DNA from: Naegleria gruberi
Taxonomy: Eukaryota
Reading direction: 5' to 3' (one strand)
NCBI GenBank assembly: GCA_000004985.1
Contig: GG738898.1
Length of the DNA stretch: 64,000 nucleotides
Made by a program: the position numbers and the translations under genes. Shown here one piece after another: positions 5,130-64,000 of this stretch. Position 1 is the first letter of the stretch. Each line of letters starts with the position of its first letter. The notes beneath the pieces were generated by a model. The model did not search any database and was not told the origin of the DNA. It saw nothing but the letters and a program-made list of their open reading frames with translations.

Positions 5130-5200
5130 TAATTTGTATTACAATAAAGTTGTCAATTAATTGATTGATTCATTTCAATCTAACATCAATTCAATTAACC

Positions 5201-5986
5201 ATGCCANNNNNNNNNNNNNNNNNNNNNNNNNNNNNNNNNNNNNNNNNNNNNNNNNNNNNNNNNNNNNNNNNNNNNNNNNNNNNNNNNNNNNNNNNNNNNN
5301 NNNNNNNNNNNNNNNNNNNNNNNNNNNNNNNNNNNNNNNNNNNNNNNNNNNNNNNNNNNNNNNNNNNNNNNNNNNNNNNNNNNNNNNNNNNNNNNNNNNN
5401 NNNNNNNNATGATAAAAGAATAAAGAATAGACCAATTTCAAGTTATCACCAGAATGGAGAAATAACTTGTTTAGAACGATCCTCAAATGGCCTGTTAGCA
5501 AGTGGTTCAACAAATAATTGTGTTAATGTTTGGGATGAAAGATCCTATAACAAGCCATTAAGCATCTACAAACATCCTAGTGTTGTTGAAAGCATGGCTT
5601 GGACAACAAGCAACATTCTATCAACTGCAATGAATAGAGAAGGAAGAGTTTTATTTTGGGATATTTCAACAGGTAATCTTTCATCAAATTTGCATACTAT
5701 TGACACACGTAGAGCAATTTCCTCTCTCGTTTGGTCAGGAAAGGATATTATAACATCATATAAGGAGTGTTTTTATATTCAATTGTGGGATGGTTTTGAC
5801 CAATCTCAAAAAAACAAATATCAAGCTTGTTTTTTGAAAACACCAAAAAATACCTATTTAACATATGGTCCAGAATCTTCCCTACTAATTGGTGCATCTT
5901 ACAATCAAATATTGTGTTGGTCATGTGAGGATAAAACAAAGAAAACCAAAATAATTGATTCATCCTTCTTAAGAATGTTAAGATAA
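5201..5986 (+). CDS. WD40-repeat protein (body interrupted by assembly gap 5207..5408)
   Basis: ATG at 5201 sits immediately before the N run. Downstream frame encodes WD-repeat-like blocks (LLASGSTNNCVNVWD, RVLFWDISTG, LVWSG) and runs to the stop at 5986. Confidence 0.45.
   Translation: MPXXXXXXXXXXXXXXXXXXXXXXXXXXXXXXXXXXXXXXXXXXXXXXXXXXXXXXXXXXXXXXXXXXXXDKRIKNRPISSYHQNGEITCLERSSNGLLASGSTNNCVNVWDERSYNKPLSIYKHPSVVESMAWTTSNILSTAMNREGRVLFWDISTGNLSSNLHTIDTRRAISSLVWSGKDIITSYKECFYIQLWDGFDQSQKNKYQACFLKTPKNTYLTYGPESSLLIGASYNQILCWSCEDKTKKTKIIDSSFLRMLR
5207..5408. other. assembly gap (202 N)
   Basis: Run of n characters in the sequence. Confidence 1.
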
Positions 5987-6054: not shown

Positions 6055-8052
6055 TCATTGTAAATCAGAAACATAGGTATTCATGGGCAATTTGCAGACT
6101 CCTTGTTTTTCCAAATATATTTCCTGATTGGCTCTATATCTTGGTGTGAAAAGAAATGAAAGTTTTTCATTCGATTTGATGGCATTAAAAGATGTTTCAC
6201 TCAAATGAACTTGTCCTGGTTGACCTGTTGCTTCTATTAATTGTGTTACCAAAACATCACTTCCAAACAAGTCATATGTTCTCTTCATATGTCCAACTAC
6301 AGCTGCTGTCACTCCTCTATGTGAGGTGTGAATACCAATTCTAACCTGTAATGAAGAATCTCCAATCAGATCTGAATTTTTCGAAACCAATTGTTCCAAT
6401 TCTTGAATCATTGACAATCCTGCTCGAACGCAACACATTGTTCCATTGGTACTTGGTATTTCATTTGTGGGTGAGGTTAACATGTTATTTACATTGGAAT
6501 TTGTCTTGGAAATTTGTTTCTTATTATTAGTGGATGAATCATTATCCAATCCAGAAGCAACAAAATAACAATCACCAATAGTCTTGATCTTTTCCAGTGT
6601 TGAATTATGTTGTTTCGAATAAACAATATCATCAAAGCATGAGAAAATATCATGCAACATATGTACAACAATTGAAGGTGATTTTCCATTGGCAAGCTCT
6701 GTAAAACCCACAATATCACAATACATCATTGTGCAATTCTGTAACTCATCAATGACCTTCTCTCCTGCAGTCAACCGATGAACAATATTCTTTGGAAAGA
6801 TCTTTTCCGTAATTTTAGTAATTTGCTCCTCATGTGTAACCATTGATTTGGTATCTCTCACAAATGCAACAAAAGATGATTTCTTACTGATTGGATCAAT
6901 AATTTCTGAAACTCTCAATTCAATTGGAATGGGTTTTCCCTCTTTAGTTTGACCTTTCACAGATCTAACACAATCTACGACTCGTTTCTCTCCGGTTGTC
7001 AAGTATCTCTTCAGGAAATCATCATGGTTCATTCGAATTTTAGGTGTGCACAACATTTTAACATTCTTTCCAATGACTTCCTTTTTAGAATAGTGAAATG
7101 TGGCAGTGGATGCCGAATTGAATATTTGAATAGTTCCCTGTTCATTGATGGAAATAATTGGAATGACTGAAATCTCTGTAATGGCTTCTCCAAATTGAAT
7201 AGATGCCAATTTCTTGATATCTTCCTCACTTTGTTCTAATTGGTTAATGTAGGCAGCAAAGTGAAGTTGTTCTAATTTTCTAAAAACCATCATTTTCAAC
7301 TTGATTGGGAATGCTTTCTTTTGTAAAGTGTTTTTTCCATTTAGGAATCGTGTTTTCATGACTTCTTTCTTTCTTCGTTCCTTTTCTTGTTGACTCACAA
7401 GTACATATGGAATTTTCAAATCTTTCATAGATGTTGACAAGCTCACTGACATGTTCAAATCCAATGATGTATCACCAATGAAATCTTCAATGGCTCTCTT
7501 GATTTCCATGGTTGATTCATGAGATAATAACTCACTCAAATATTCTCCCATGACTGCCAGAGAATAAAATCCAAACACTTCCTCTGCCTGATTATTAAGA
7601 TATTCAATAGTGAGATTGCTATCGAATACAATAATTGGACAACCACACGACTGAAACTGTTCTACCAAATCGTTCAGTAATGAGTATTCCTCAAGAGTTG
7701 TAATTACAAATGCCTCCTCTTCCATTTCATTTCTCTCTGCCTCTGAAGTGCTATCAGTACTGTATTCGGATGATTTATAAGTGCTCGAATAGTTGGATGT
7801 TGACGCAATACTGGAACTATTACTGATTGTACTGTTGGTCTTGTTTAGTTTGCTCAACATTCGAGAGCTTATACCTCTGGAATTGTTGTGTTGTAGCTTT
7901 GCTTGTAAGTTTGGTTTCGAATTGAATTTTGAAGAGCTGACATTGCGTTTGTTTAGTGTTGCCAAGGAGTGTGTGTTTTGATTGGCGACCTCATCTCCAT
8001 CATTATCATTAGTTGTTGGTTTGATAGGAACTAGCTTTTGTTTGCTGGACAT
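6055..8052 (-). CDS. PAS-PAS-class III nucleotidyl cyclase (adenylyl-cyclase-like specificity residues, transition-state residues degenerate)
   Basis: 665-aa intron-less ORF with ATG at 8050..8052 (minus). It has an N-terminal Asn/Ser-rich low-complexity region, two PAS-like blocks (IIVFDSNLTIEYLNNQAEEVFG and IQIFNSASTATFHYSKKEVIGKNVKML...FVAFVRDTK), then a cyclase domain with MMYCDIVGFT, KIKTIGDCYFVASGL and RIGIHTSHRGVTAAVVGHMKRTYDLFG. Confidence 0.85.
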   Translation of the reverse strand: MSSKQKLVPIKPTTNDNDGDEVANQNTHSLATLNKRNVSSSKFNSKPNLQAKLQHNNSRGISSRMLSKLNKTNSTISNSSSIASTSNYSSTYKSSEYSTDSTSEAERNEMEEEAFVITTLEEYSLLNDLVEQFQSCGCPIIVFDSNLTIEYLNNQAEEVFGFYSLAVMGEYLSELLSHESTMEIKRAIEDFIGDTSLDLNMSVSLSTSMKDLKIPYVLVSQQEKERRKKEVMKTRFLNGKNTLQKKAFPIKLKMMVFRKLEQLHFAAYINQLEQSEEDIKKLASIQFGEAITEISVIPIISINEQGTIQIFNSASTATFHYSKKEVIGKNVKMLCTPKIRMNHDDFLKRYLTTGEKRVVDCVRSVKGQTKEGKPIPIELRVSEIIDPISKKSSFVAFVRDTKSMVTHEEQITKITEKIFPKNIVHRLTAGEKVIDELQNCTMMYCDIVGFTELANGKSPSIVVHMLHDIFSCFDDIVYSKQHNSTLEKIKTIGDCYFVASGLDNDSSTNNKKQISKTNSNVNNMLTSPTNEIPSTNGTMCCVRAGLSMIQELEQLVSKNSDLIGDSSLQVRIGIHTSHRGVTAAVVGHMKRTYDLFGSDVLVTQLIEATGQPGQVHLSETSFNAIKSNEKLSFLFTPRYRANQEIYLEKQGVCKLPMNTYVSDLQ

Positions 8053-8504: not shown

Positions 8505-9725
8505 TTAAAGATTGCTATAGTAATTTTCATAATAATCATCAACATTCTCATAGCTATAGATATACTGAGAATCGGTAAAATCTTCCTCCCTCTGACTGTC
8601 ATCCAAATAATCTTTAAATACATTGAGAAATGGCTCAATGTTTCCATCTGGATTATGACCTTTCTTTGAGTTGTGATCTTCAATAATGGCAAAGTAAATT
8701 CTATCGAAATAACCTTCATACTTTTCCAGTTGAGTTTTAAAAGCTTTTGCCATCTGATTAGGGTTATTCTTAAAGGCCCCACATCCAAACGCAGACAATA
8801 CCAAATTTCTAACACCATTCAAAATGGCCACCTTGAATATTGCCTCAATAGTTCCATTGTTTCGTCCATCAATTTTTTCTGTATTTTTCGATTTGTTTGG
8901 TACAGCAGCTGCAGTAATGACATCCAATAATCTTGGAACTTGCAAGAGTGGATAACCTTTTGCTTCGCACCCTCTGAAAAACAATACATTTGGTGAGAAG
9001 CATGCACTCTCATGCCCAATAGGATAGCTCCACTTTCTATGTTTATCCAATTGATCAACCTTATTATCCAAACATTGATACAAGTTAGATCTTCTGAATA
9101 GATTTTCCTCCTGAGCTCCACCTATTTTCATTCAAATAACTTGGTTATTAAACTACTTACAACCTGATTGATAACCACCTCCAGGAGTATTTGGATTGGC
9201 CATATTGAGAATGGCTACTCTCTCATTTTGCATCTTTCCACTCTTTACCAATTCATCCTGGATCTTGAATGCAACATCCACACAATCTCCATTAATTACC
9301 AAAACTCTAGTCTTTTCCTGAATACTATTATCAGAAGAATTCAATGTAGGAATCACCTGCCCCTCATTTCTAATAAACAGTGTTCCAACACTCGACTGAA
9401 TCATCAACTCTTCCTTCAATGAAACCTTTTCTACAATTTCATCATCATCAATTCGATTTTTAGAATTTCTATGATTTTTAAAATTGTACAAATAGTATTG
9501 ATCCCTACAAATATCAATCGTTTGTCTCTGAACAAGTATTCGGAGCCTTTTAATTTTCTTATAATCAGCCTTTTCTAGACAATCATCATATTGATTTCGG
9601 AATTGAGAGGGATCATAGGGATAGGTATTAAAAGTTGAATGTTTCTTGTGGAAATCATCAACTTGAAAGAAAGAGGTGGGACAATTCGAGTGTTTTTTGG
9701 TGGAGAAATTGTTGGAGGTGATCAT
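8505..9725 (-). CDS. bacterial-type poly(ADP-ribose) glycohydrolase / DUF2263 macrodomain protein; complement(join(8505..9121,9161..9725))
   Basis: Two track ORFs join through a 39-bp intron (minus strand GTAAGT...AATAG, + coords 9122..9160). Spliced product carries the PARG signature [34 protein letters not shown] (GGG-x3-G-x2-AQEE). ATG at 9723..9725. Exon lengths sum to 1182 nt, in frame. Confidence 0.7.
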
Positions 9726-19937: not shown

Positions 19938-22900
19938 CTAATGATGATTTGGATCAAAAACGATTGGACCAATACAATTGACAAGATTTTGGTAATTAGG
20001 ATCACGAGTATTGTTTGCATGACTTGCACTGGCCTTTTTCTTTTCACAGGCCTTTCCCAACATCATCATTAAAAGTTCCTTTGAAAGATCTTCATCAGAT
20101 TCATCATCTGGAGCAATCATTTCGAATACTCTTTCCATAATGGAAGGATACAAACGTAAAAGATCGTATGAATCTACAGAATGACCGTACATGGCCTCAT
20201 CGAATGGTTCTCCTTCTCCATAACTGTCACAATCAGGAGCAACAAAGCATAATGGTAAGACACTTTCAATAAATCTCAAAATACAATGTTGATGACTTGT
20301 AAGACCAGTAATTTGCCATGTTGGATGTAATTCATCATCTTTTTCTTGGTCATATCTTTGAGAAGATAATTCTGCTTGTCTCTTTCTTGCATCCTCCTCT
20401 TCAGTTTCATTAAAGAGTTTTTTCACACGATTGGCTTCAGATCTTTCAATTTTAGAAATTATCAATTTGACACAAGTATCATGGAAAATGTAGAGGAATC
20501 TCTTGTGTTTTCTTTCAGATGAAGGAATGGACTTGATCTCAGGGAGATGTTGATACAATGCTTGTTCAGTCATTTTAAAAACACCCAATGCTTTCATAAA
20601 AGATTTCTCATTAACCTCTTGCATTTGCTTCTTTGTGAGCTTGGTAACTCCTTCAATGTAGAGAATTGGAAGATCATTTTGAGGAGCACACTTGCAAATT
20701 CTATCAGAATGTCCAGTACAGCATTTTCTATAAAGATCATGAAGGGACATGTCCGACAAGTGAAGGAATTTACAATTCTTTCCATTACCACATGATTGAA
20801 TAGAACTGTGCTTCATGCAAACCTCGGTCTTTTTTTGAGGAGCTTGAGGTTCAGGAATAATTTCTACAACTTCCTTCTTTTTGCTCTTTGGTGTGGTGAG
20901 TGGAGGAAATTCGTCAGGATGTTCCTGTTGATACTTGATATAGAATGATCTGTCGTGTGAGTATGGGCAAATTCCAGATCCAAATTTACACTTTCCTTTA
21001 AAGTGATCTCTACAAGGTTTGTTATAACCCTCCTCTTTAGCTTCAGTTTTAGTTTTGGTTTCAACCTTTTCCACTTTCTCAGGTTCAGGTTTTTCCTTCT
21101 CTTCCTTTTTAGGTTGTGGTGTTGGTTCATTCTTCTTCTTGTTCTTATTTTTCTTGGAATTTTTGGAAGAAACTGGTTGTGTTTGGGTTTGTTTTTTGGT
21201 AGTCTTTTCACTTGATTGAATTTCTGCAGGAACACTCTCAAGCACACTGAAAGAGTTTGATGAAGATGCTAATGGTATCTTGTCTGGAATTTCCTCGAGG
21301 ACTTTCTTCTTCTTACCAGAAGATGAGGTTGTAAACGAATTATTTTTGGATTTGGAAGAAGTGTCCAAATTTCTCAAATATTCCAACTCAAATTCTCTTT
21401 GAAGCTTTTTAGCCAACTCTTCATCAAGTTTCTCTTGTTCACTCTTTTCCTCCTTCTCTAGTTTTGGTGTTTCCACGAGCGGCTTTACTTCCTGGGCAGC
21501 TTTGGCTTTATCATTCTTTTTCTTGGATTTGGATTTTTGTGAAACTGGTTGTGGCTCTGGTTTTTTCTTGGCTGACTCCTTATTCTTATCACTAGGTGTT
21601 GTAGAATTGATTTCAGGGGTGCTGACTACTGTTNNNNNNNNNNNNNNNNNNNNNNNNNNNNNNNNNNNNNNNNNNNNNNNNNNNNNNNNNNNNNNNNNNN
21701 NNNNNNNNNNNNNNNNNNNNNNNNNNNNNNNNNNNNNNNNNNNNNNNNNNNNNNNNNNNNNNNNNNNNNNNNNNNNNNNNNNNNNNNNNNNNNNNNNNNN
21801 NNNNNNNNNNNNNNNNNNNNNNNNNNNNNNNNNNNNNNNNNNNNNNNNNNNNNNNNNNNNNNNNNNNNNNNNNNNNNNNNNNNNNNNNNNNNNNNNNNNN
21901 NNNNNNNNNNNNNNNNNNNNNNNNNNNNNNNNNNNNNNNNNNNNNNNNNNNNNNNNNNNNNNNNNNNNNNNNNNNNNNNNNNNNNNNNNNNNNNNNNNNN
22001 NNNNNNNNNNNNNNNNNNNNNNNNNNNNNNNNNNNNNNNNNNNNNNNNNNNNNNNNNNNNNNNNNNNNNNNNNNNNNNNNNNNNNNNNNNNNNNNNNNNN
22101 NNNNNNNNNNNNNNNNNNNNNNNNNNNNNNNNNNNNNNNNNNNNNNNNNNNNNNNNNNNNNNNNNNNNNNNNNNNNNNNNNNNNNNNNNNNNNNNNNNNN
22201 NNNNNNNNNNNNNNNNNNNNNNNNNNNNNNNNNNNNNNNNNNNNNNNNNNNNNNNNNNNNNNNNNNATTAAAAGTTGTCCTCCATTTGGGTTATTGTTCA
22301 TTAAACCACCACTAGCCGAGTTACTCACTCCAAGACCATTGTTGCCTGTTGTATTAAATCCAACAAGATTATTTCCACCACCAATATTATTATTCCATCC
22401 AAGAGCACTATTTGTATTGCCCATAGATAGATTTAGATTATTAAATTGTTGTTGTTGCTGTTGTTGAAAGGCTCTATTTCCAAAATCATTGTGAAATGAT
22501 GATAACAGGGAGCTAGAAGGATTGTTCAAATTATTGACCAATCCGCCATGTAAACCACTACTTCCACCAGTGTTTAAATTACCAGTCAGGCCATTATTAA
22601 AGGAGTTGTTACCCAAATTATTATTCACAAGGCCATTGTTGACCATATTTCCCATGGGAGGAGCATTCATTACATGATTCCTTGTGCCAATAGGTTCTGT
22701 TGTAGAGGAACCCAACAAGGACAATCCAAATGGATTTGAATTTGTATTTGTCAAATTACTATTGGATAAATTATTATTATTTCGTAAGAGATTGCTTGCT
22801 AAATTGTTATTATTACTCGGAGAATGAGAGAATAACTTGTTATTTCCCAATAATTGAAAGCCATCATTATGTGGATTATTCGTTGATATTGGTTGTTGTT

Positions 22901-36192: not shown

Positions 36193-36558
36193 NNNNNNNN
36201 NNNNNNNNNNNNNNNNNNNNNNNNNNNNNNNNNNNNNNNNNNNNNNNNNNNNNNNNNNNNNNNNNNNNNNNNNNNNNNNNNNNNNNNNNNNNNNNNNNNN
36301 NNNNNNNNNNNNNNNNNNNNNNNNNNNNNNNNNNNNNNNNNNNNNNNNNNNNNNNNNNNNNNNNNNNNNNNNNNNNNNNNNNNNNNNNNNNNNNNNNNNN
36401 NNNNNNNNNNNNNNNNNNNNNNNNNNNNNNNNNNNNNNNNNNNNNNNNNNNNNNNNNNNNNNNNNNNNNNNNNNNNNNNNNNNNNNNNNNNNNNNNNNNN
36501 NNNNNNNNNNNNNNNNNNNNNNNNNNNNNNNNNNNNNNNNNNNNNNNNNNNNNNNNNN
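36193..36558. other. assembly gap (366 N)
   Basis: Run of n characters. A 39-bp island at 36559..36597 separates it from the next gap. Confidence 1.
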
Positions 36559-36597: not shown

Positions 36598-36802
36598 NNN
36601 NNNNNNNNNNNNNNNNNNNNNNNNNNNNNNNNNNNNNNNNNNNNNNNNNNNNNNNNNNNNNNNNNNNNNNNNNNNNNNNNNNNNNNNNNNNNNNNNNNNN
36701 NNNNNNNNNNNNNNNNNNNNNNNNNNNNNNNNNNNNNNNNNNNNNNNNNNNNNNNNNNNNNNNNNNNNNNNNNNNNNNNNNNNNNNNNNNNNNNNNNNNN
36801 NN
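36598..36802. other. assembly gap (205 N)
   Basis: Run of n characters. Confidence 1.
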
Positions 36803-38994: not shown

Positions 38995-41900
38995 TTAAAT
39001 GTTGAATTCTCCTTCTAAGAATGTGTAAATAATTNNNNNNNNNNNNNNNNNNNNNNNNNNNNNNNNNNNNNNNNNNNNNNNNNNNNNNNNNNNNNNNNNN
39101 NNNNNNNNNNNNNNNNNNNNNNNNNNNNNNNNNNNNNNNNNNNNNNNNNNNNNNNNNNNNNNNNNNNNNNNNNNNNNNNNNNNNNNNNNNNNNNNNNNNN
39201 NNNNNNNNNNNNNNNNNNNNNNNNNNNNNNNNNNNNNNNNNNNNNNNNNNNNNNNNNNNNNNNNNNNNNNNNNNNNNNNNNNNNNNNNNNNNNNNNNNNN
39301 NNNNNNNNNNNNNNNNNNNNNNNNNNNNNNNNNNNNNNNNNNNNNNNNNNNNNNNNNNNNNNNNNNNNNNNNNNNNNNNNNNNNNNNNNNNNNNNNNNNN
39401 NNNNNNNNNNNNNNNNNNNNNNNNNNNNNNNNNNNNNNNNNNNNNNNNNNNNNNNNNNNNNNNNNNNNNNNNNNNNNNNNNNNNNNNNNNNNNNNNNNNN
39501 NNNNNNNNNNNNNNNNNNNNNNNNNNNNNNNNNNNNNNNNNNNNNGAGTGTGGATAGGAACAGGATTTTCATAGTGATGATGTTCCATATGTAATTCCAC
39601 ATCTGCTGATGAAATTATTGGCTTGTGATGAGAATCATCTTCCACTTGTGGAGTTTGTGGAATTTGTTCCTCTCCTTCCCATGCTCGTTTCACATTGGCA
39701 ACAAATGTTGTTGGAATACCAGTTGCTTGTTGCATAGTACCATCCACTTTGAGTGTTCTTGTTGATGATTGCTTCTCAAAGAGGTTACTAATATTGTACG
39801 TAGTGGTGGTTGTGGTGGCTGTGGTAGCTGTGGTGGCAGGTCTTTCTGAAATACAGTCTTGTGCATTCAAACTTTCCAAATTAACTTTAGAATTAATTGG
39901 TAGGATACTATTGATAGAGTATTTGAGTGATCTTGAAGTTGCTGGTGTTGATGGTTTAGTTGATGATTGACTGTAAATAGAACTAGATGGTTGAATAACA
40001 TGATGGTCAATCAAGTCTATGGAATCAACAACTTGTTGTGGAACAACCGAATTCTTCTTAATCAGGTCCAAATTCAATTCCTTGATAGAAATGACAGAAT
40101 TTGCAGTGGATGGCCTCTTGTCTTCCTCTTCAGTTGGACGAGTTGGTGTAGATGGTATTTCTTGATCGGGATTATATTCCTTTCTAGGAATGTAAAAATT
40201 TCCTTCAATATCTTCATGACTTGGAACAGCAATTTCACTTTCGTCACCATAATGTTTCTTTGAAGGAAGCTTAATCTTTTGTGGTTTGAGGTCATCATGA
40301 GTAACATAGGACAAGTGACGAAGAAGTTTTGGAATAGGACGTGGTCGAATAGGTCTGACCGGTCCAGAACCTTCCTTTGGGTTGGTGGAACCATGCTTAT
40401 TCTTTGAATTCTTGGTATTTCTCTTTCTCATAAAGAAACATACAAGGAAAAGCAACAAGAACATGCAGGACAATCCACATACTATGGCTGCTGAAAACAC
40501 AGCTGCTGCAACGTACATGTACGAGTAGTGAGAAACTGTGGCAGTCTGGATGACAAAGACATTGGTAAAGTGAGAACATTTACAATAGGCATGTGTATCA
40601 TTCTTCAGTTGGAGGGAACATGAGTAGGTAACTTCAGTAGTTCCATCTAAAAAGTCTGCACATGCATAACTGTCTGTTTCCTCTGTAAAATCGAATGAAC
40701 TTGCTGTACTAGATGTAAGAGTACTTGTAGTATTGATGGGAATAATGTAAATGAGGCCATCTTCCTTCATAGGAACACTCAAGTCCGTGAATTCAACCGA
40801 GACAATTGGAGAAATAAGACTTGACGTTCTAGTTGTCGAGGCAGAAAGTTTTTGTGAAAGTTTTAGCTTTCTATCAAGAGAAAACACATCATCTGTTACT
40901 GTCATTACGTACGTGAATGGTTTTTTAACAAGTGATGATACCTTATTTTCAAAAACAAAGAAATTGTCTGGAATTAGAACAGAAGTAGATCTTTCAGAGT
41001 CAGTAATGATATTCTCATAATCATAAATGGTACTTTTACCCATAATCATGGAGAAGAATGGTCCTTTGGTTCTAGTAATAGTACGAGAAATGTACATGTC
41101 TCTGGTTTGAAGATTTGACGACATTTTGAGTGCGGATAATAATTTTCTAGAATTGGAAGTTTGGTCAGTAATGTACTGTCTTTCCATAATGTAGTCATGG
41201 ACAGATTCAACACAAGCATTCAATAGGTTTTGCACACCTGGAGATAATTTGATTTTTCCAGAATCTTGGGCAGTTGTTAAAAACCTATTCAGGGTGCATA
41301 ATGCCTCTGAAATTGTCTTGGAATTGAGGAAATGATAATTAACAAGGATTGAATCAACAGCAAATGAGAGTAGAGAAATGTAATCCTCATTCAAACCATC
41401 AGTCTTATTCATACTTGTAGTAATATCATTTAGGACAGTTAATTTGCTCTTTTGGATGTTAGAAAAATCTCTAATGGAGGTTTCACAATGAGTACCAATA
41501 TATCCATCAGCACACTTGCATTCGCCTGAAACTTCTACACCACTTATACATTGAAGATACTTGGTTGATCTTTCATTTATGGAACGCTTAAATGATAAAT
41601 CTCCAAGGGTTTCTTTCAATAGAACCGAATCTGTTCTAGAAGTAGAGGCAGATTGATAGATGCTCTTACTGAAATGACCTTCGGACATGTAGGTTGCACT
41701 CACCCCTGACCAAGTCGATACAATTTCTTGAACTTGTTCAATGTCTGTTACTGTTGGTTTGGAAATTGTAATATTCTTCTCCATAAGAGTTGTACCGCCT
41801 GTGACAGTATTGATAATTTCAAAGAAACAAGTCACTGTATCACCATAGAATGGTGCAGGTAGTTTGGAGGCAAACACTTCACCAAGGTTGTACAGATAAA

Positions 41901-61200: not shown

Positions 61201-64000
61201 AGAGGGCATTCTTGACAGACTTGAAGATTGTTATTGTTTCTGTTTCTGGCTTTTGAATGAGCTGGTTAAGTTTTACATTTATCAGAGAAAGCTCATTCTG
61301 GAAAAATCTCAACTCCTCCTCAGCAAATTGTGGATATTTACGTTTAAAGTTGGTGAGGGAACTCTCAGCAATTTTGAGTAAATAATTAAGAGATTTGATG
61401 GCACGTATAAGTTTTTCTTTTGTTCCTACAGTCATATCATCAAGCTTAATCAAATCAAAATGCTTATTCAGGTAGAAAAGTATGAAACGATGACTCAGAC
61501 TGTACTGAAGAGACTTCTTGAAATCCTCAATGATAGAGATGGATGTTTCTGGAGAATCAACAAACTGAGCCAACAAAATACAAATCTTTTCAAAGACCTT
61601 CTGTAAAAGTTGACTCTCTTTGAATTCAAATGAATCACTTGTCTTTGGTTTGCCATACTTGTTGGCAATTCCAAGGAATGATGTCATTATCTCACGGAAA
61701 CATATAGTCGTATCGACTGTCTTGAAGTCAATATTGTTAATAATTGATTGAATGTTAGTTTCATCCATAATATCCCACTTTAAAAAGTCTCTCAGATTAG
61801 GATTGATCGCAATTGAAGTAGAGACAACATTAACAGCAAGACAGAGCTTGGCATTCTTTTGACACTTTTGTTTGATTGGTTCATTTTGGTCAAATTCATG
61901 AATATTCGTAAAGCCCTTTGTGAAATCATAGCATGGAAGAGGATCAATTTGAGTTTCATTTCCAAGTGTTAGAGTTCTGGTTCCATCATCAACATGGAAG
62001 TAAGCGAAAAAGTCTGGTGAAATTTCATATGCATTCTTCTTGGTATTTACAACATAAAATTCGAATACAATGATGGCAGATTGAAGTTGATGAGAATTTA
62101 CATTGACTAACAGAATTTCACTCCATGATGGGTTTTTCATTCTCACAATAGCACTATTAAAGAGTAAATTAAATTGTTTGATTATTCCTACTTACGATCT
62201 GTAAACTCTCTGCTTTCTATTGATATCACATTGAATAGTCATACCATCTTTGCCCTTTATGTACATCTTAGCTTCGACAAAGAGAGTCTTGACATTCTTG
62301 TTCAGAACATTCTTAACATTGATATAGATATCATTTCTAATATCGTCCGATATGATAGAACTGCTGAATCTTGTCATTGGAACGAGAGGAAGTTGAGAAA
62401 GTTGAGGATATTGCTTGTATGCTTTGTGATAATCTCCTGTGACCATACTGAGTGAAACATCAATTCCCATAATATCCTCTCTCTCAAGATTTTGATCATC
62501 ATTCATTACTTGATCGAGGAAGGAATCCAAATTGTCATTGCTCTTGAAGTTGAAAAAGGTAACCTCATGTTTAAGAGTGACACCACCAGCAAGTTCAGAA
62601 ACCACAGACTTGGTAAGTTTTGGTGAAACACCAACCGCCATAGGTATTCTGCAATCCAAAAAGGTCTTTCCATTGACTGGTGTGTCCAATTTAACTCTCT
62701 CCACTCTGAAGGCACGTACAAGAATGAGCATTTGTTCCCTCTCTATGAAAGCTCTTGAAACATCCTTGAAGAGTGCATAGAGATTTTGTCGTTGTCTAAG
62801 AGTTGCATCTTCCTCATCATGGTTGCCTGAGGAATTAATAGAAACATGTCNNNNNNNNNNNNNNNNNNNNNNNNNNNNNNNNNNNNNNNNNNNNNNNNNN
62901 AACTTGTCGCTATCTTCAAAACCTCTTCAGGGCCAGTAACACTCACTCTAGAATGATGCATGCTCGATGTGAAAATAACCAAATCTTCAGAAAGGAATGA
63001 TTTGGTAGAAATATCAAACAAACTAAATCTCCACTCCACTTTCAAATAGTAGGAACAGCCTCCAATTTCTATGGCCAATTGAGAGTTTCCTTCAGGTATT
63101 CTACTATATGATCTTCTCTTAGTCTTTAAAATGCTAAGGGCCAAATTACTCTCCTCCTTGTCAATAGTTTCCCAGTACATTTTGTACAAGTCGAAGAGAG
63201 GAGTATTGAGAGGTGACAATTTTTCGCCATTCTTCTTAATAACAACATCTTCACTAAAGAGAGATGCCCCCTCCTCTCTCAAGCTTACTTGAGATTTGAG
63301 AATTTCCTTCATTCTGGATTTGTAATTTTCCGAATCTTCTCTCCTCTGATAGGAATAATAATCAATGAGATAATTGATCATTCTAGCTTCAATTTCGAAT
63401 ACTCTCATGAATCGATCTCTGTTATCTTCCTGAGTTACCAAGGATTCAAAGTGACTCAAATTCCACTCATACACAGTTTCAATCATGGACTTGCAGAAAG
63501 GAACAGCCAAAAATGGTGAGAACCAATTATCCTCCAAGAAGGGAACAATTTCTCGTTGATAGTGTTGTGACATGTTTTGCAAGATTTCAACACTAGCTCC
63601 CAAATAGTTCGATTGTGCATAAATTTGTTCTGGAAAGACATTTCCAAGAGCTATCAATGCATTCGAAATGATAATATTTGCATTCTTTGGAGCTATGGCA
63701 AAAGCTGCATTGGAAGCAATGCTTTGGCTTCTTTTTCTGTCATGATTGCTACCTTTTGGAGAGAGTAATTTATCATTGTCATTACCACCACTGGAAAAGA
63801 TGTTATCTGCAAGGGAAGAAGTTCTCTGATTGGAAAATTCTTCTCTGCTAGCACTTGCTGAGAAAACATTTGACAAGTTCATACCTGACAAATTCAAACT
63901 AGCTCTCTTATTCTTTGAGGAATCATTGATAATACTTTGTCTCTTATCCACTGTTGGTGTGAGTGGCTTTCTTTCTGACTTTTCTGAAGGAGTTGGTGAT
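58268..64000 (-). CDS. DOCK-family Rho/Rac guanine-nucleotide exchange factor (DHR-1 C2-like and DHR-2 catalytic regions), 5' end beyond window; complement(join(58268..62153,62196..~62850,gap,62901..>64000))
   Basis: The C-terminal 1,290 aa contain a DHR-2-like region (…SLEVAIYYLELRIHAVQELVVSHKLNESNLLTASLDSELTGLIDP...). A 42-bp intron (GTAAGT...AATAG, 62154..62195) joins ...NRKQRVYRS to AIVRMKNPSW. The upstream exon carries a DHR-1/C2-like block (RNDIYINVKNVLNKNVKTLFVEAKMYIKGKDG). The frame changes across the 50-N gap at 62851..62900. The ORF is still open at 64000. Confidence 0.8.
62851..62900. other. assembly gap (50 N) inside DOCK gene
   Basis: Run of n characters; coding frame differs on the two sides. 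Confidence 1.

What the first reader, a model, noticed from the sequence alone, without database searches (positions are those of the whole stretch)
6055..8052. PAS-PAS sensor fused to a class III cyclase domain that keeps metal and adenine-specificity residues but lacks the transition-state Asn/Arg
The cyclase domain has both metal-binding Asp (CDIVGFT, TIGDCYF) and the Lys/Asp pair that specifies ATP (KIKTIGD, YDLFG). Where active cyclases have G-x-x-V-N-x-A-S-R-x-E, this protein has GSDVLVTQLIE (~6240..6300), so Asn is Leu and Arg is Leu. The gene may therefore be a sensor-regulated pseudo-cyclase or an obligate heterodimer partner. PAS-cyclase architecture is bacterial/cyanobacterial in flavour and unusual for a eukaryote.
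Basis: partly seen in the sequence, partly recalled or inferred. Interest (0 to 1): 0.7.

Follow-up and report, generated by a model that had tools for sequence, protein, structure and literature searches.

The report
Half-cyclase with FixL-type haem sensor
This Naegleria gruberi gene joins a probable haem-based oxygen sensor to an adenylate cyclase domain that keeps only the metal-binding half of the active site, so it most likely needs a complementary partner subunit, much like animal soluble guanylate cyclase.

Summary
ORF 6055-8052(-) is an intact 665-aa Naegleria gruberi gene with the layout PAS-A, PAS-B, linker, class III cyclase. It keeps both metal Asp (D446, D494), the phosphate Arg (R571) and the adenine pair (K490, D594). 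The transition-state Asn and Arg are Leu (L601, L605).

This is a family trait. All 13 relatives from Naegleria and Willaertia lack Asn/Arg, whereas 17 outgroup haem-PAS cyclases are canonical or nearly so. The cyclase domain of one paralogue is under strong purifying selection (omega 0.06).

A second, slowly evolving paralogue family ("beta-like") in N. fowleri, N. lovaniensis and Willaertia keeps Asn/Arg. In Willaertia it has lost exactly the two metal Asp and the phosphate Arg.

Best reading: this protein is a C1/sGC-alpha-like half of a heterodimeric, haem-regulated adenylate cyclase. Two gaps remain. No beta orthologue was recovered for N. gruberi itself, and nothing has been tested biochemically. 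The claim that the architecture is unusual for a eukaryote is wrong, because it also occurs in chytrids, diatoms and other heteroloboseans.

The parts
6055..8052 (-). Whole gene: single-exon ORF of 665 aa plus stop, N. gruberi 'predicted protein'
   Evidence: (100% identity, 100% coverage).
7738..8052 (-). N-terminal Ser/Asn-rich low-complexity region (residues 1-105), predicted disordered
   Evidence: pLDDT below 50 for residues 1-103. It has no counterpart in the alignments.
7237..7695 (-). PAS-A (residues about 120-272) with an inserted charged loop of about 40 residues; cofactor unknown
   Evidence: PAS_4 at 135-189; confident PAS-like helix/strand pattern over 140-271; the tandem matches the FixL PAS-A/PAS-B dimer 8js5.
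6853..7188 (-). PAS-B (residues 289-400), FixL/DosP-type haem-PAS candidate
   Evidence: all 13 PDB hits are haem-PAS O2 sensors; RmFixL 1d06 scores E 5.5e-19. BjFixL H200, R206, I215/I216, R220, L236 and I238 align to H343, R349, V358/V359, R363, L379 and V381.
7024..7026 (-). His343 codon (CAT), predicted proximal haem ligand
   Evidence: It is invariant in all 34 aligned relatives.
6748..6852 (-). Helical linker or cyclase-transducer-like element (residues 401-435, ...EEQITKITEKIFPKNIVHRL...)
   Evidence: helices 407-418 and 421-428. P420 is invariant. It aligns to the pre-catalytic linker of sGC alpha and GC-A.
6073..6747 (-). Class III nucleotidyl cyclase domain (residues 436-660), C1/alpha-like
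   Evidence: PF00211, E 2.9e-34; it scores higher against the C1 halves of AC9 and AC8 than against their C2 halves.
6715..6717 (-). Asp446, first metal-binding Asp (CDIVGFT)
6571..6585 (-). K490-T-I-G-D494: adenine-specifying Lys and second metal-binding Asp
   Evidence: The guanylate-cyclase-type fungal relatives have Glu at the position of 490.
6445..6543 (-). Low-complexity insertion of 33 residues (504-536) inside the cyclase domain. It is full-length only in this paralogue; P0002 has a shorter one.
   Evidence: pLDDT below 50 for residues 517-529.
6340..6342 (-). Arg571, phosphate-binding Arg (VRIGIHT)
6223..6279 (-). T592-G610, TYDLFGSDVLVTQLIEATG: D594 is kept; Leu601 and Leu605 replace the transition-state Asn and Arg
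   Evidence: helix 598-609.

Best explanation
**What it is.** The gene encodes the metal-binding half (C1-like, or sGC-alpha-like) of a heterodimeric, haem-regulated adenylate cyclase.

**Proposed mechanism**
- PAS-B binds haem b through His343 and senses O2 or another diatomic gas, as FixL and DosP do.
- The signal travels through the helical linker to a cyclase dimer.
- In that dimer this subunit supplies D446, D494 and R571, which bind the two metal ions and the triphosphate.
- A second subunit supplies the adenine-reading Lys/Asp and the transition-state Asn/Arg, giving a single competent ATP site.
- The symmetry-related site contains this protein's K490, D594, L601 and L605. It is catalytically dead and may serve as a regulatory pocket.

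**Likely partner.** The best candidate is the orthologue of a conserved 'beta-like' haem-PAS cyclase paralogue found in N. fowleri, N. lovaniensis and Willaertia. Other C2-like Naegleria cyclases are also possible.

**Shown versus inferred**
- Shown here: the domain anatomy, the residue states, their conservation across the family, purifying selection, and complementary paralogues in sister species.
- Inferred: haem binding, the ligand, heterodimer formation, the identity of the partner in N. gruberi, and cAMP as the product.
For: 1. **Residue pattern.** The C1-type residues D446, D494 and R571 are kept, while Asn and Arg are replaced by Leu.
2. **PDB similarity.**
   - Sequence similarity is higher to metal-binding halves: AC9 C1 scores 30.8+29.9 bits against 19.4+14.2 for C2.
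   - sGC alpha1 scores E 3.9e-17.
   - The whole-chain Foldseek top hits are full-length sGC beta and alpha chains, at E about 5e-18.
3. **Family-wide trait.**
   - The 13 alpha-like sequences come from N. gruberi (5), N. fowleri (4), N. lovaniensis (2), Willaertia (1) and one environmental contig.
   - None has Asn or Arg/Lys at positions 601 and 605.
   - Twelve of 13 keep D494 and R571. D446 is kept in 11, is Glu in P0172, and falls in a gene-model gap in P0009.
   - All 13 keep K490 and D594.
4. **Not decaying.**
   - Within the family the cyclase domain is as conserved (0.54/0.49 identity) as PAS-B (0.56).
   - Between N. fowleri and N. lovaniensis orthologues of one alpha paralogue, the cyclase domain has dN 0.053, dS 0.92 and omega 0.058. 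This is the lowest omega of any domain.
5. **Complementary paralogue.**
   - The beta-like family (P0267, P0382, P0383, P0384) has the same PAS-PAS-cyclase layout and always keeps TVNFASRMQ (Asn and Arg) and K/D.
   - All members change the phosphate-loop Gly449 to Asn.
   - The Willaertia protein has Asp1 to Gly, Asp2 to Glu and Arg571 to Lys. It is encoded by one uninterrupted genomic ORF.
   - An environmental Naegleria-like beta also has Arg571 to Lys.
   - In Willaertia, therefore, neither an alpha/alpha nor a beta/beta dimer could build a complete site. Only alpha/beta could.
6. **Copy number and rate.** Beta is single-copy per genome and slowly evolving (CTE 97%, cyclase 78-79% identity). 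Alpha is multi-copy and evolves faster. This fits one hub subunit with several partners.
7. **Ancestral state.** Acrasis and Percolomonas relatives are fully canonical. The split therefore arose within Heterolobosea.
8. **Other half-cyclases in Naegleria.** A receptor-type cyclase directly upstream of an alpha-like gene in N. fowleri and N. lovaniensis lacks both Asp and the Arg but keeps Asn/Arg.
9. **Haem PAS.** All 13 PDB hits to PAS-B are FixL or DosP, with the His and Arg ligand residues conserved. A published analysis identifies the F-alpha His as the primary determinant of haem binding in this PAS cluster (PMC10468136).
Against: - **No N. gruberi partner found.** The last protein search returned no beta-like orthologue from N. 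gruberi. The word prefilter of that tool is demonstrably lossy, because searches missed known members. The N. gruberi genome could not be searched directly.
- **Imperfect complementarity.** In N. fowleri and N. lovaniensis the beta-like protein still has both Asp and the Arg. It could therefore work as a homodimer. Strict complementarity is seen only in Willaertia, and partly in one environmental sequence.
- **Unexplained conservation.** This protein's K490 and D594 are conserved in 13 of 13 family members, although a pure C1 role does not obviously require them.
- **Divergence.** Alpha and beta share only 27-31% identity.
- **No direct evidence.** No physical or co-expression evidence for pairing exists. 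No partner gene lies next to this gene.
Confidence: 0.5

Rival explanations
1. Non-catalytic pseudo-cyclase. The protein forms homodimers, or dimers with other alpha-like paralogues. These bind Mg-ATP with adenine specificity but cannot cyclise it. It would act as a haem/O2-regulated ATP-binding switch or scaffold, or as a dominant-negative modulator of active cyclases.
For: - Asn and Arg are missing in all 13 family members.
- The ATP-reading K490 and D594 and the metal and phosphate residues are strictly kept, which fits nucleotide binding without turnover.
- One family member, N. lovaniensis P0172, has gone further: D446 to Glu and R571 to Lys.
- No N. gruberi partner was found.
- Strong purifying selection is compatible with any conserved function.
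Against: - Twelve of 13 members keep the precise catalytic metal ligands and the phosphate Arg, which a mere scaffold would not need.
- The Willaertia beta-like protein has lost exactly the complementary residues. That loss is hard to explain unless the two types complete each other.
Confidence: 0.25
2. Self-sufficient homodimeric adenylate cyclase with low or unconventional activity. The transition state would be stabilised by other residues or by the metals alone.
For: - All substrate- and metal-binding residues are present.
- From my own knowledge, not checked here: mutating Asn or Arg in mammalian and mycobacterial cyclases lowers kcat by one to two orders of magnitude rather than abolishing activity.
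- Some positions are invariant only in this family, for example H467, H575, Q614 and H616.
Against: - The residue at the Asn position varies freely within the family (L, A, E, S, T, Q). The Arg position is simply hydrophobic (L, I, M) or Ser, so no replacement catalytic residue sits at either position.
- No compensating basic residue conserved only in this family was found near the motif.
- Both residues are missing at once.
Confidence: 0.17
3. A decaying pseudogene, a sequencing error or a gene-model artefact.
For: The database entry is only a 'predicted protein'. The window contains assembly gaps, for example N runs at 5207-5408.
Against: - The ORF of 665 codons is intact.
- Each Leu codon is at least two base changes away from any Asn or Arg codon.
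- The same substitutions occur in 13 genes from four species.
- Omega is 0.058 for the cyclase domain of a paralogue.
- The AlphaFold model is confident, with pLDDT above 90 over all three domains.
Confidence: 0.03

Closest known systems
Soluble guanylate cyclase alpha1/beta1 (animal NO receptor)
   Same: - It has the order haem sensor, PAS, helical linker, class III cyclase.
- It is an obligate heterodimer in which one subunit (alpha) gives the metal Asp residues and the other (beta) gives Asn/Arg and the base-specifying residues, so there is one active and one degenerate site.
- Full-length sGC chains are the best Foldseek matches to the model, and sGC alpha1 is a strong sequence hit.
   Different: - The haem domain here is a FixL-type haem PAS, not an H-NOX. 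No H-NOX is present.
- The base-specifying pair is Lys/Asp (ATP), not Glu/Cys (GTP).
- Both putative subunits carry the haem His.
- The alpha-like subunit is multi-copy.
- The phylogeny places the split within Heterolobosea, so the resemblance would be convergent.
- Heterodimerisation is not demonstrated.
Mammalian membrane adenylate cyclase C1 domain (for example AC9, AC8, AC5 C1)
   Same: - These are among the best sequence matches to the cyclase domain.
- C1 keeps the two Asp and the Arg and lacks the Asn/Arg pair. AC9 C1 reads ...DVNLANLME, with Leu at the Arg position as here.
- C1 often keeps the Lys/Asp equivalents in the degenerate site.
   Different: C1 and C2 lie on one polypeptide with 12 transmembrane helices and are regulated by G proteins. 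Here the half-domain is a separate soluble protein with its own PAS sensors.
FixL (Bradyrhizobium, Sinorhizobium) and DosP (E. coli) haem-PAS O2 sensors
   Same: - PAS-B is about 45% identical to the RmFixL haem PAS (E 5.5e-19).
- The proximal His, the propionate Arg, the O2-contacting Arg and the distal hydrophobic residues are conserved.
- The PAS-A/PAS-B tandem matches the FixL dimer structure 8js5.
   Different: The output is a class III cyclase instead of a histidine kinase or an EAL phosphodiesterase. The organism is a eukaryote. Haem binding is untested.
HemAC-Lm, the globin-coupled O2-sensing adenylate cyclase of Leishmania major
   Same: It is a protist haem-based gas sensor fused to an adenylate cyclase. 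It is cited as the known O2-sensing haem adenylate cyclase in PMC11259077.
   Different: It uses a globin, not a PAS, as the haem domain. I know of no complementary half-site degeneration reported for it; this is my own knowledge and was not checked here.
Heterodimeric rhodopsin-guanylyl cyclases of chytrids (NeoR with RGC1/RGC2)
   Same: They are sensor-cyclase paralogues of a protist that act only as heterodimers, with one subunit pairing with alternative partners (PMC8815786).
   Different: In that system RGC1 and RGC2 keep all catalytic residues, and the cause of obligate pairing is thought to lie outside the cyclase core (PMC8815786). Here the cyclase cores themselves are complementary. 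The sensor there is a rhodopsin and the product is cGMP.

Membership tests
Class III nucleotidyl cyclase (Pfam PF00211) | Sequence and fold match to the catalytic domain | tested here: met
   E 2.9e-34, profile positions 5-179 of 183. TM-score about 0.8 (normalised to target length) against isolated cyclase domains.
Class III nucleotidyl cyclase (Pfam PF00211) | Two metal-binding Asp residues | tested here: met
   D446 and D494.
Class III nucleotidyl cyclase (Pfam PF00211) | Phosphate-binding Arg (equivalent of the C1 Arg in RxGIHxG) | tested here: met
   R571.
Class III nucleotidyl cyclase (Pfam PF00211) | Base-specifying pair (Lys/Asp for ATP) | tested here: met
   K490 and D594. The guanylate-cyclase-type fungal relatives have Glu plus Cys or Thr at these columns.
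Class III nucleotidyl cyclase (Pfam PF00211) | Transition-state Asn and Arg (VNxASRxE) | tested here: not met
   L601 and L605. The protein is a structural member, but it is not a complete catalytic protomer for a homodimer.
Class III nucleotidyl cyclase (Pfam PF00211) | Gamma-phosphate Lys of the C-terminal KGKG hairpin | tested here: inconclusive
   The local alignment is ambiguous because of an insertion: EKQG against KGKG. K649 is conserved in 10 of 13 alpha-like sequences but is offset by one column.
Class III nucleotidyl cyclase (Pfam PF00211) | cAMP or cGMP synthesis | not testable with these tools
   Needs an enzyme assay.
FixL/DosP-type haem PAS | Sequence similarity to solved haem-PAS domains | tested here: met
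   13 of 13 PDB hits are FixL or DosP/EcDOS; best E 5.5e-19.
FixL/DosP-type haem PAS | Proximal His on the F-alpha helix | tested here: met
   H343 aligns with BjFixL H200 and is invariant in 34 relatives. PMC10468136 names this His as the primary determinant of haem binding.
FixL/DosP-type haem PAS | Distal Arg that contacts bound O2 (BjFixL R220) and propionate Arg (R206) | tested here: met
   R363 and R349.
FixL/DosP-type haem PAS | Haem b binding and ligand-dependent switching | not testable with these tools
   Needs spectroscopy of purified protein.
Heterodimeric class III cyclase (sGC alpha/beta or tmAC C1/C2 type) | This subunit keeps one half of the catalytic set and lacks the other | tested here: met
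Heterodimeric class III cyclase (sGC alpha/beta or tmAC C1/C2 type) | A partner with the complementary half is encoded in the same genome | tested here: inconclusive
   A partner was found in Willaertia (fully complementary), in N. fowleri and N. lovaniensis (Asn/Arg kept, phosphate loop altered) and on an environmental contig. None was recovered for N. gruberi, whose genome could not be searched.
Heterodimeric class III cyclase (sGC alpha/beta or tmAC C1/C2 type) | Physical heterodimer with activity only on pairing | not testable with these tools
   No multimer prediction or assay was available.
Soluble guanylate cyclase proper | N-terminal H-NOX haem domain and Glu/Cys GTP specificity | tested here: not met
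   No H-NOX hit; Lys/Asp at the specificity positions. It works like sGC but is not a member.

The most novel reading that the evidence does not exclude
Vahlkampfiid heteroloboseans (Naegleria, Willaertia) independently evolved an sGC-like gas receptor built from FixL-type haem-PAS cyclases.
- One conserved beta-like subunit carries a MGxxxS/T start that resembles an N-myristoylation signal. It supplies Asn/Arg and base recognition.
- It pairs combinatorially with four to six faster-evolving alpha-like subunits. These include this gene and supply the metal site.
- The result would be a set of O2-tuned (or NO/CO-tuned) adenylate cyclases, each with one active and one regulatory site.

This would be a convergent origin of heterodimeric haem-regulated cyclases outside animals.
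Probability: 0.4. Interest if true: 0.75.

Novelty: new variant of a known kind. Interest (0 to 1): 0.62.

Why it matters
**If the model holds**
- It would show that the sGC design arose more than once, here from FixL-type parts in a free-living amoeboflagellate. That design is a haem sensor driving a heterodimeric cyclase with one live and one dead site.
- It would give a molecular handle on how Naegleria, including the pathogen N. fowleri, senses oxygen.
- It would help explain why Naegleria keeps roughly 80-100 cyclase genes: some may be halves that must pair.
- It would provide a natural, soluble, two-gene system for studying half-site complementation and possible pseudo-site regulation in class III cyclases.

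**If it proves to be a pseudo-cyclase instead**
- It would be a well-conserved case of an ATP-binding, haem-regulated dead enzyme.

Tried and rejected
- **Second cyclase in the window.** tblastn of the protein against all 64 kb found only the gene itself. The neighbours are a WD40 gene and a split microbial-type PARG gene.
- **N. gruberi paralogue loci.** P0002, P0005 and the query itself are not in the contig index. N. gruberi gene neighbourhoods, and a direct search for a beta orthologue, were therefore impossible.
- **Neighbours of other alpha-like genes.** The Willaertia alpha gene (L001) and N. fowleri alpha Aa (L002) have no adjacent cyclase. The 6 kb without called genes upstream in L001 holds no ORF of 120 aa or more.
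- **Exhaustive HMMER search.** The search with residues 120-665 was swamped by giant proteins with 13 or more FixL-like PAS repeats. It gave few cyclase relatives. It did yield P0172 and P0223, and P0223 led to Percolomonas and then to the beta-like family.
- **Literature.** Searches found no description of a Naegleria haem-PAS cyclase or of these half-site families.
- **dN/dS of the linker.** The value for the linker segment was discarded because tblastn mis-threaded an intron there (27% identity).
- **Gamma-phosphate Lys.** I first thought it was lost as well. The alignment around an insertion is ambiguous, so I do not claim it.
- **Pseudogene or sequencing error.** Rejected on conservation and selection.
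- **Neighbour-joining tree.** The tree supports one heterolobosean-type clade (96%) that holds alpha, beta, Acrasis and Percolomonas. Internal branching order is poorly supported, so I do not claim that alpha and beta are sister groups.
Full report
**1. What is in the window**

The minus-strand ORF 6055..8052 is intact and encodes 665 aa. It is identical over its full length to a public entry named only 'predicted protein [Naegleria gruberi]'. The window is therefore N. gruberi nuclear DNA, about 34% G+C with assembly gaps. Pfam finds PAS_4 at 135-189, PAS at 289-400 and Guanylate_cyc at 436-660, the last with E 2.9e-34.

An AlphaFold2 model built on a 50-sequence alignment has a mean pLDDT of 80. 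Three domains are confident: PAS-A at about 130-271, PAS-B at about 295-400 and the cyclase at 434-662. They are joined by helices 407-428. Residues 1-103 and a loop at 517-529 are disordered.

**2.

HMMER alignments to solved structures place CDIVGFT and KIKTIGDCYF on the two metal-Asp motifs. They also place YDLFGSDVLVTQLIEATG, without gaps, on YDIWGDTVNIASRMDTTG (AC9 C2) and YDIWGKTVNLASRMDSTG (AC8 C2). The resulting residue states are:

| Role | Residue | Window coordinates |
|---|---|---|
| Metal Asp 1 | D446 | 6715-6717 |
| Metal Asp 2 | D494 | 6571-6573 |
| Adenine-specifying Lys | K490 | 6583-6585 |
| Adenine-specifying Asp | D594 | 6271-6273 |
| Phosphate Arg | R571 | 6340-6342 |
| Transition-state Asn position | Leu601 (TTG) | 6250-6252 |
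| Transition-state Arg position | Leu605 (TTA) | 6238-6240 |

Both Leu codons are at least two base changes from any Asn or Arg codon. Both residues lie in helix 598-609 of the model.

**3. The substitution is a family trait under selection**

Protein searches recovered 13 close relatives with the same architecture:
- five from N. gruberi, including the query
- four from N. fowleri
- two from N. lovaniensis
- one from Willaertia magna
- one from an environmental contig

In a 34-sequence alignment none of them has Asn or Arg/Lys at positions 601 and 605. The Asn position is L, A, E, S, T or Q, and the Arg position is L, I, M or S. All keep K490 and D594. Twelve keep D494 and R571. D446 is kept in 11; it is Glu in N. 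lovaniensis P0172, which also has R571 as Lys, and it falls in a gene-model gap in P0009. By contrast, 16 of 17 outgroup PAS-cyclases carry VNxASR.

Within the family the cyclase domain is as conserved as PAS-B, at 0.54/0.49 against 0.56 mean pairwise identity. I also compared the N. fowleri and N. lovaniensis orthologues of one alpha-like paralogue by a Nei-Gojobori estimate. The cyclase domain gave dN 0.053, dS 0.92 and omega 0.058 over 193 codons, the strongest constraint of any domain. A pseudogene or artefact is therefore excluded.

**4.

All 13 PDB sequences hit by PAS-B are haem-PAS oxygen sensors. They are Sinorhizobium FixL 1d06 (E 5.5e-19), Bradyrhizobium FixL and E. coli DosP/EcDOS. 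The alignment pairs these residues:

| BjFixL | This protein | Role |
|---|---|---|
| H200 | H343 | proximal haem ligand |
| R206 | R349 | propionate Arg |
| I215/I216 | V358/V359 | distal hydrophobic |
| R220 | R363 | contacts bound O2 |
| L236 | L379 | distal hydrophobic |
| I238 | V381 | distal hydrophobic |

H343 is invariant in all 34 relatives. A published PAS survey names this His as the primary determinant of haem binding in the FixL/DosP cluster (PMC10468136). The PAS-A/PAS-B tandem of the model matches the FixL PAS dimer 8js5, and the whole chain matches full-length sGC beta and alpha best, at E about 5e-18. Haem binding itself remains an inference.

**5. The cyclase domain looks like a C1 or alpha half**

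It scores higher against the C1 halves of AC9 and AC8 than against their C2 halves. For AC9 the scores are 30.8+29.9 bits against 19.4+14.2 bits. sGC alpha1 also scores well, at E 3.9e-17. From established structural work on class III cyclases (my own knowledge), each active site lies at the dimer interface. One protomer gives the two Asp and an Arg. The other gives the base-specifying pair and the Asn/Arg. A homodimer of this protein would therefore have two sites that both lack Asn/Arg. A review in the library notes that in many heterodimeric class III cyclases the missing catalytic residues are what make pairing necessary (PMC8815786).

**6. A complementary paralogue exists in sister species**

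A search seeded with the canonical Percolomonas relative found Willaertia P0267. A search seeded with P0267 then found N. lovaniensis P0382, N. fowleri P0383, two environmental Naegleria-like genes (P0384, P0385) and a canonical Acrasis kona protein.

These 'beta-like' proteins share the PAS-A, haem-type PAS-B (His kept), linker and cyclase layout. Their catalytic pattern is as follows:
- All keep Asn and Arg (TVNFASRMQ) and the Lys/Asp pair.
- All change the phosphate-loop Gly449 to Asn.
- The Naegleria proteins also change Thr451 to Asn.
- The Willaertia protein has Asp1 to Gly, Asp2 to Glu and Arg571 to Lys.
- The environmental P0384 has Arg571 to Lys. This was seen after joining its second exon across a 38-nt intron.

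P0267 is encoded by one uninterrupted genomic ORF. In Willaertia, therefore, neither type can complete a site alone, but together they can.

Beta is single-copy per genome and highly conserved, with the linker 97% and the cyclase 78-79% identical across Willaertia and Naegleria. Alpha is multi-copy and evolves faster.

A neighbour-joining tree puts alpha, beta, Acrasis, Percolomonas and some environmental sequences in one clade with 96% support. Alpha sits on a long branch, and the deeper order is unresolved. Because the Acrasis and Percolomonas proteins are fully canonical, the ancestral state was a complete homodimer-type enzyme.

**7. Other half-cyclases exist in Naegleria**

In N. fowleri (L009) a 798-aa receptor-type cyclase lies 265 bp upstream of alpha-like gene Ac on the same strand. 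An orthologous gene occupies the same upstream position in N. lovaniensis (L008). The N. fowleri gene has a weak dCache match, a transmembrane segment and one intron. Aligned to P. aeruginosa CyaB, its domain has Gly at both Asp positions and Thr at the Arg position, but keeps YTVIGENVNIASRLQ. It is another possible partner type. At the least it shows that complementary degeneration recurs in this genus.

**8. Best explanation and its limits**

I judge it most likely (about 0.5) that this gene encodes the metal-binding half of a heterodimeric, haem-regulated adenylate cyclase. The main weaknesses are these:
- No beta orthologue was recovered for N. gruberi. That tool's word prefilter is lossy, since searches missed known members, and the N. 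gruberi genome was not searchable.
- The two environmental betas are as far from N. fowleri (67-72% identity) as N. gruberi proteins typically are. This suggests beta is widespread in the genus, but it does not prove the point for N. gruberi.
- The Naegleria betas still have both Asp and the Arg, and so might also work alone.
- K490 and D594 of the alpha family are conserved beyond what a pure C1 role requires. They may line a regulatory pseudo-site, or they may point to ATP binding in a non-catalytic homodimer.

The rivals are a pseudo-cyclase (0.25), a weak unconventional homodimer (0.17) and an artefact (0.03).

**9. Comparison with what is known**

In operation the protein resembles sGC alpha and tmAC C1. 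By sensor it resembles FixL and DosP. It is not an sGC, because it has no H-NOX and has Lys/Asp specificity.

The only haem-based O2-sensing adenylate cyclase named in the reviews I could read is the globin-coupled HemAC-Lm of Leishmania (PMC11259077). I found no paper on these Naegleria families. The library is incomplete, however; I did not find the N. gruberi genome paper in it.

The architecture is not unusual for microbial eukaryotes. FixL-like PAS plus cyclase fusions occur in Percolomonas, Acrasis, Allomyces, Synchytrium and the diatom Conticribra weissflogii.

**10. Verdict**

I classify the finding as a new variant of a known kind, namely heterodimer-type class III cyclases, here coupled to FixL-type haem PAS sensors. 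Interest is moderate to high, and rests on the untested pairing and on haem binding.

Noticed in passing
window 8505-9131(-) and 9153-9725(-): Two adjacent minus-strand ORFs each match part of the microbial-type PARG catalytic domain (profile positions 39-97 and 97-145). They probably form one gene split by a roughly 20-nt intron or a frameshift. A bacterial-type poly(ADP-ribose) glycohydrolase in Naegleria may be worth a look.
   Followed up: partly
window 5165-5986(+), N run 5207-5408: A WD40 (CDC20/Fizzy-like) ORF is interrupted by an assembly gap. Further N runs lie at 21634-22266, 36193-36558, 36598-36802, 39035-39545 and 62851-62900.
   Followed up: partly
public proteins P0121-P0165: There are dozens of giant proteins of 2,000-5,500 aa that contain 13 or more tandem FixL-like PAS repeats, each repeat about 35% identical to PAS-B. 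Their sources are mostly unnamed assemblies.
   Followed up: no
public proteins P0166 and P0204: Shorter multi-repeat FixL-like PAS proteins end in a canonical cyclase domain. The P0166 cluster includes the diatom Conticribra weissflogii, and both the P0166 and P0204 clusters include MMETSP transcripts.
   Followed up: partly
P0172, N. lovaniensis C9374_000900: This alpha-like family member has degenerated further: the first metal Asp is Glu (CELLG), the phosphate Arg is Lys, and the PAS-B Arg363 equivalent is Thr. It may be a fully non-catalytic offshoot of the family.
   Followed up: partly
P0212, N. gruberi NAEGRDRAFT_82220: This relative of paralogue P0008 has PAS-A and PAS-B followed by an unrelated C-terminal region of about 400 aa that ends in a hydrophobic tail, instead of a cyclase. 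Its contig is listed with the same length (158,571) as that of P0008. It could be a tandem duplicate, a domain swap or a fused gene model.
   Followed up: no
L009 7227-9736(+) (N. fowleri); orthologue ends at L008 1-61 (N. lovaniensis): A receptor-type cyclase with a C2-like degenerate domain (no metal Asp, no phosphate Arg, Asn/Arg kept) lies directly upstream of an alpha-like haem-PAS cyclase gene on the same strand in both species.
   Followed up: partly
N termini of P0267, P0382, P0383, P0384, P0385, P0262, P0265, P0015 and P0194: The beta-like proteins and the canonical relatives start with MGxxxS/T or MGxxC, which resembles N-myristoylation and palmitoylation signals. No alpha-like protein does. 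If real, only the beta-type subunit would be membrane-anchored.
   Followed up: no
P0021, Allomyces macrogynus: This guanylate-cyclase-type haem-PAS cyclase (Glu/Thr at the specificity positions) has Ala and Lys at the Asn and Arg positions. It is a second, independent departure from the canonical pair.
   Followed up: no
L001 and L009: TANGO2 and RRM genes lie near the alpha-like gene both in Willaertia and in N. fowleri. This suggests conserved local synteny around one alpha paralogue.
   Followed up: no
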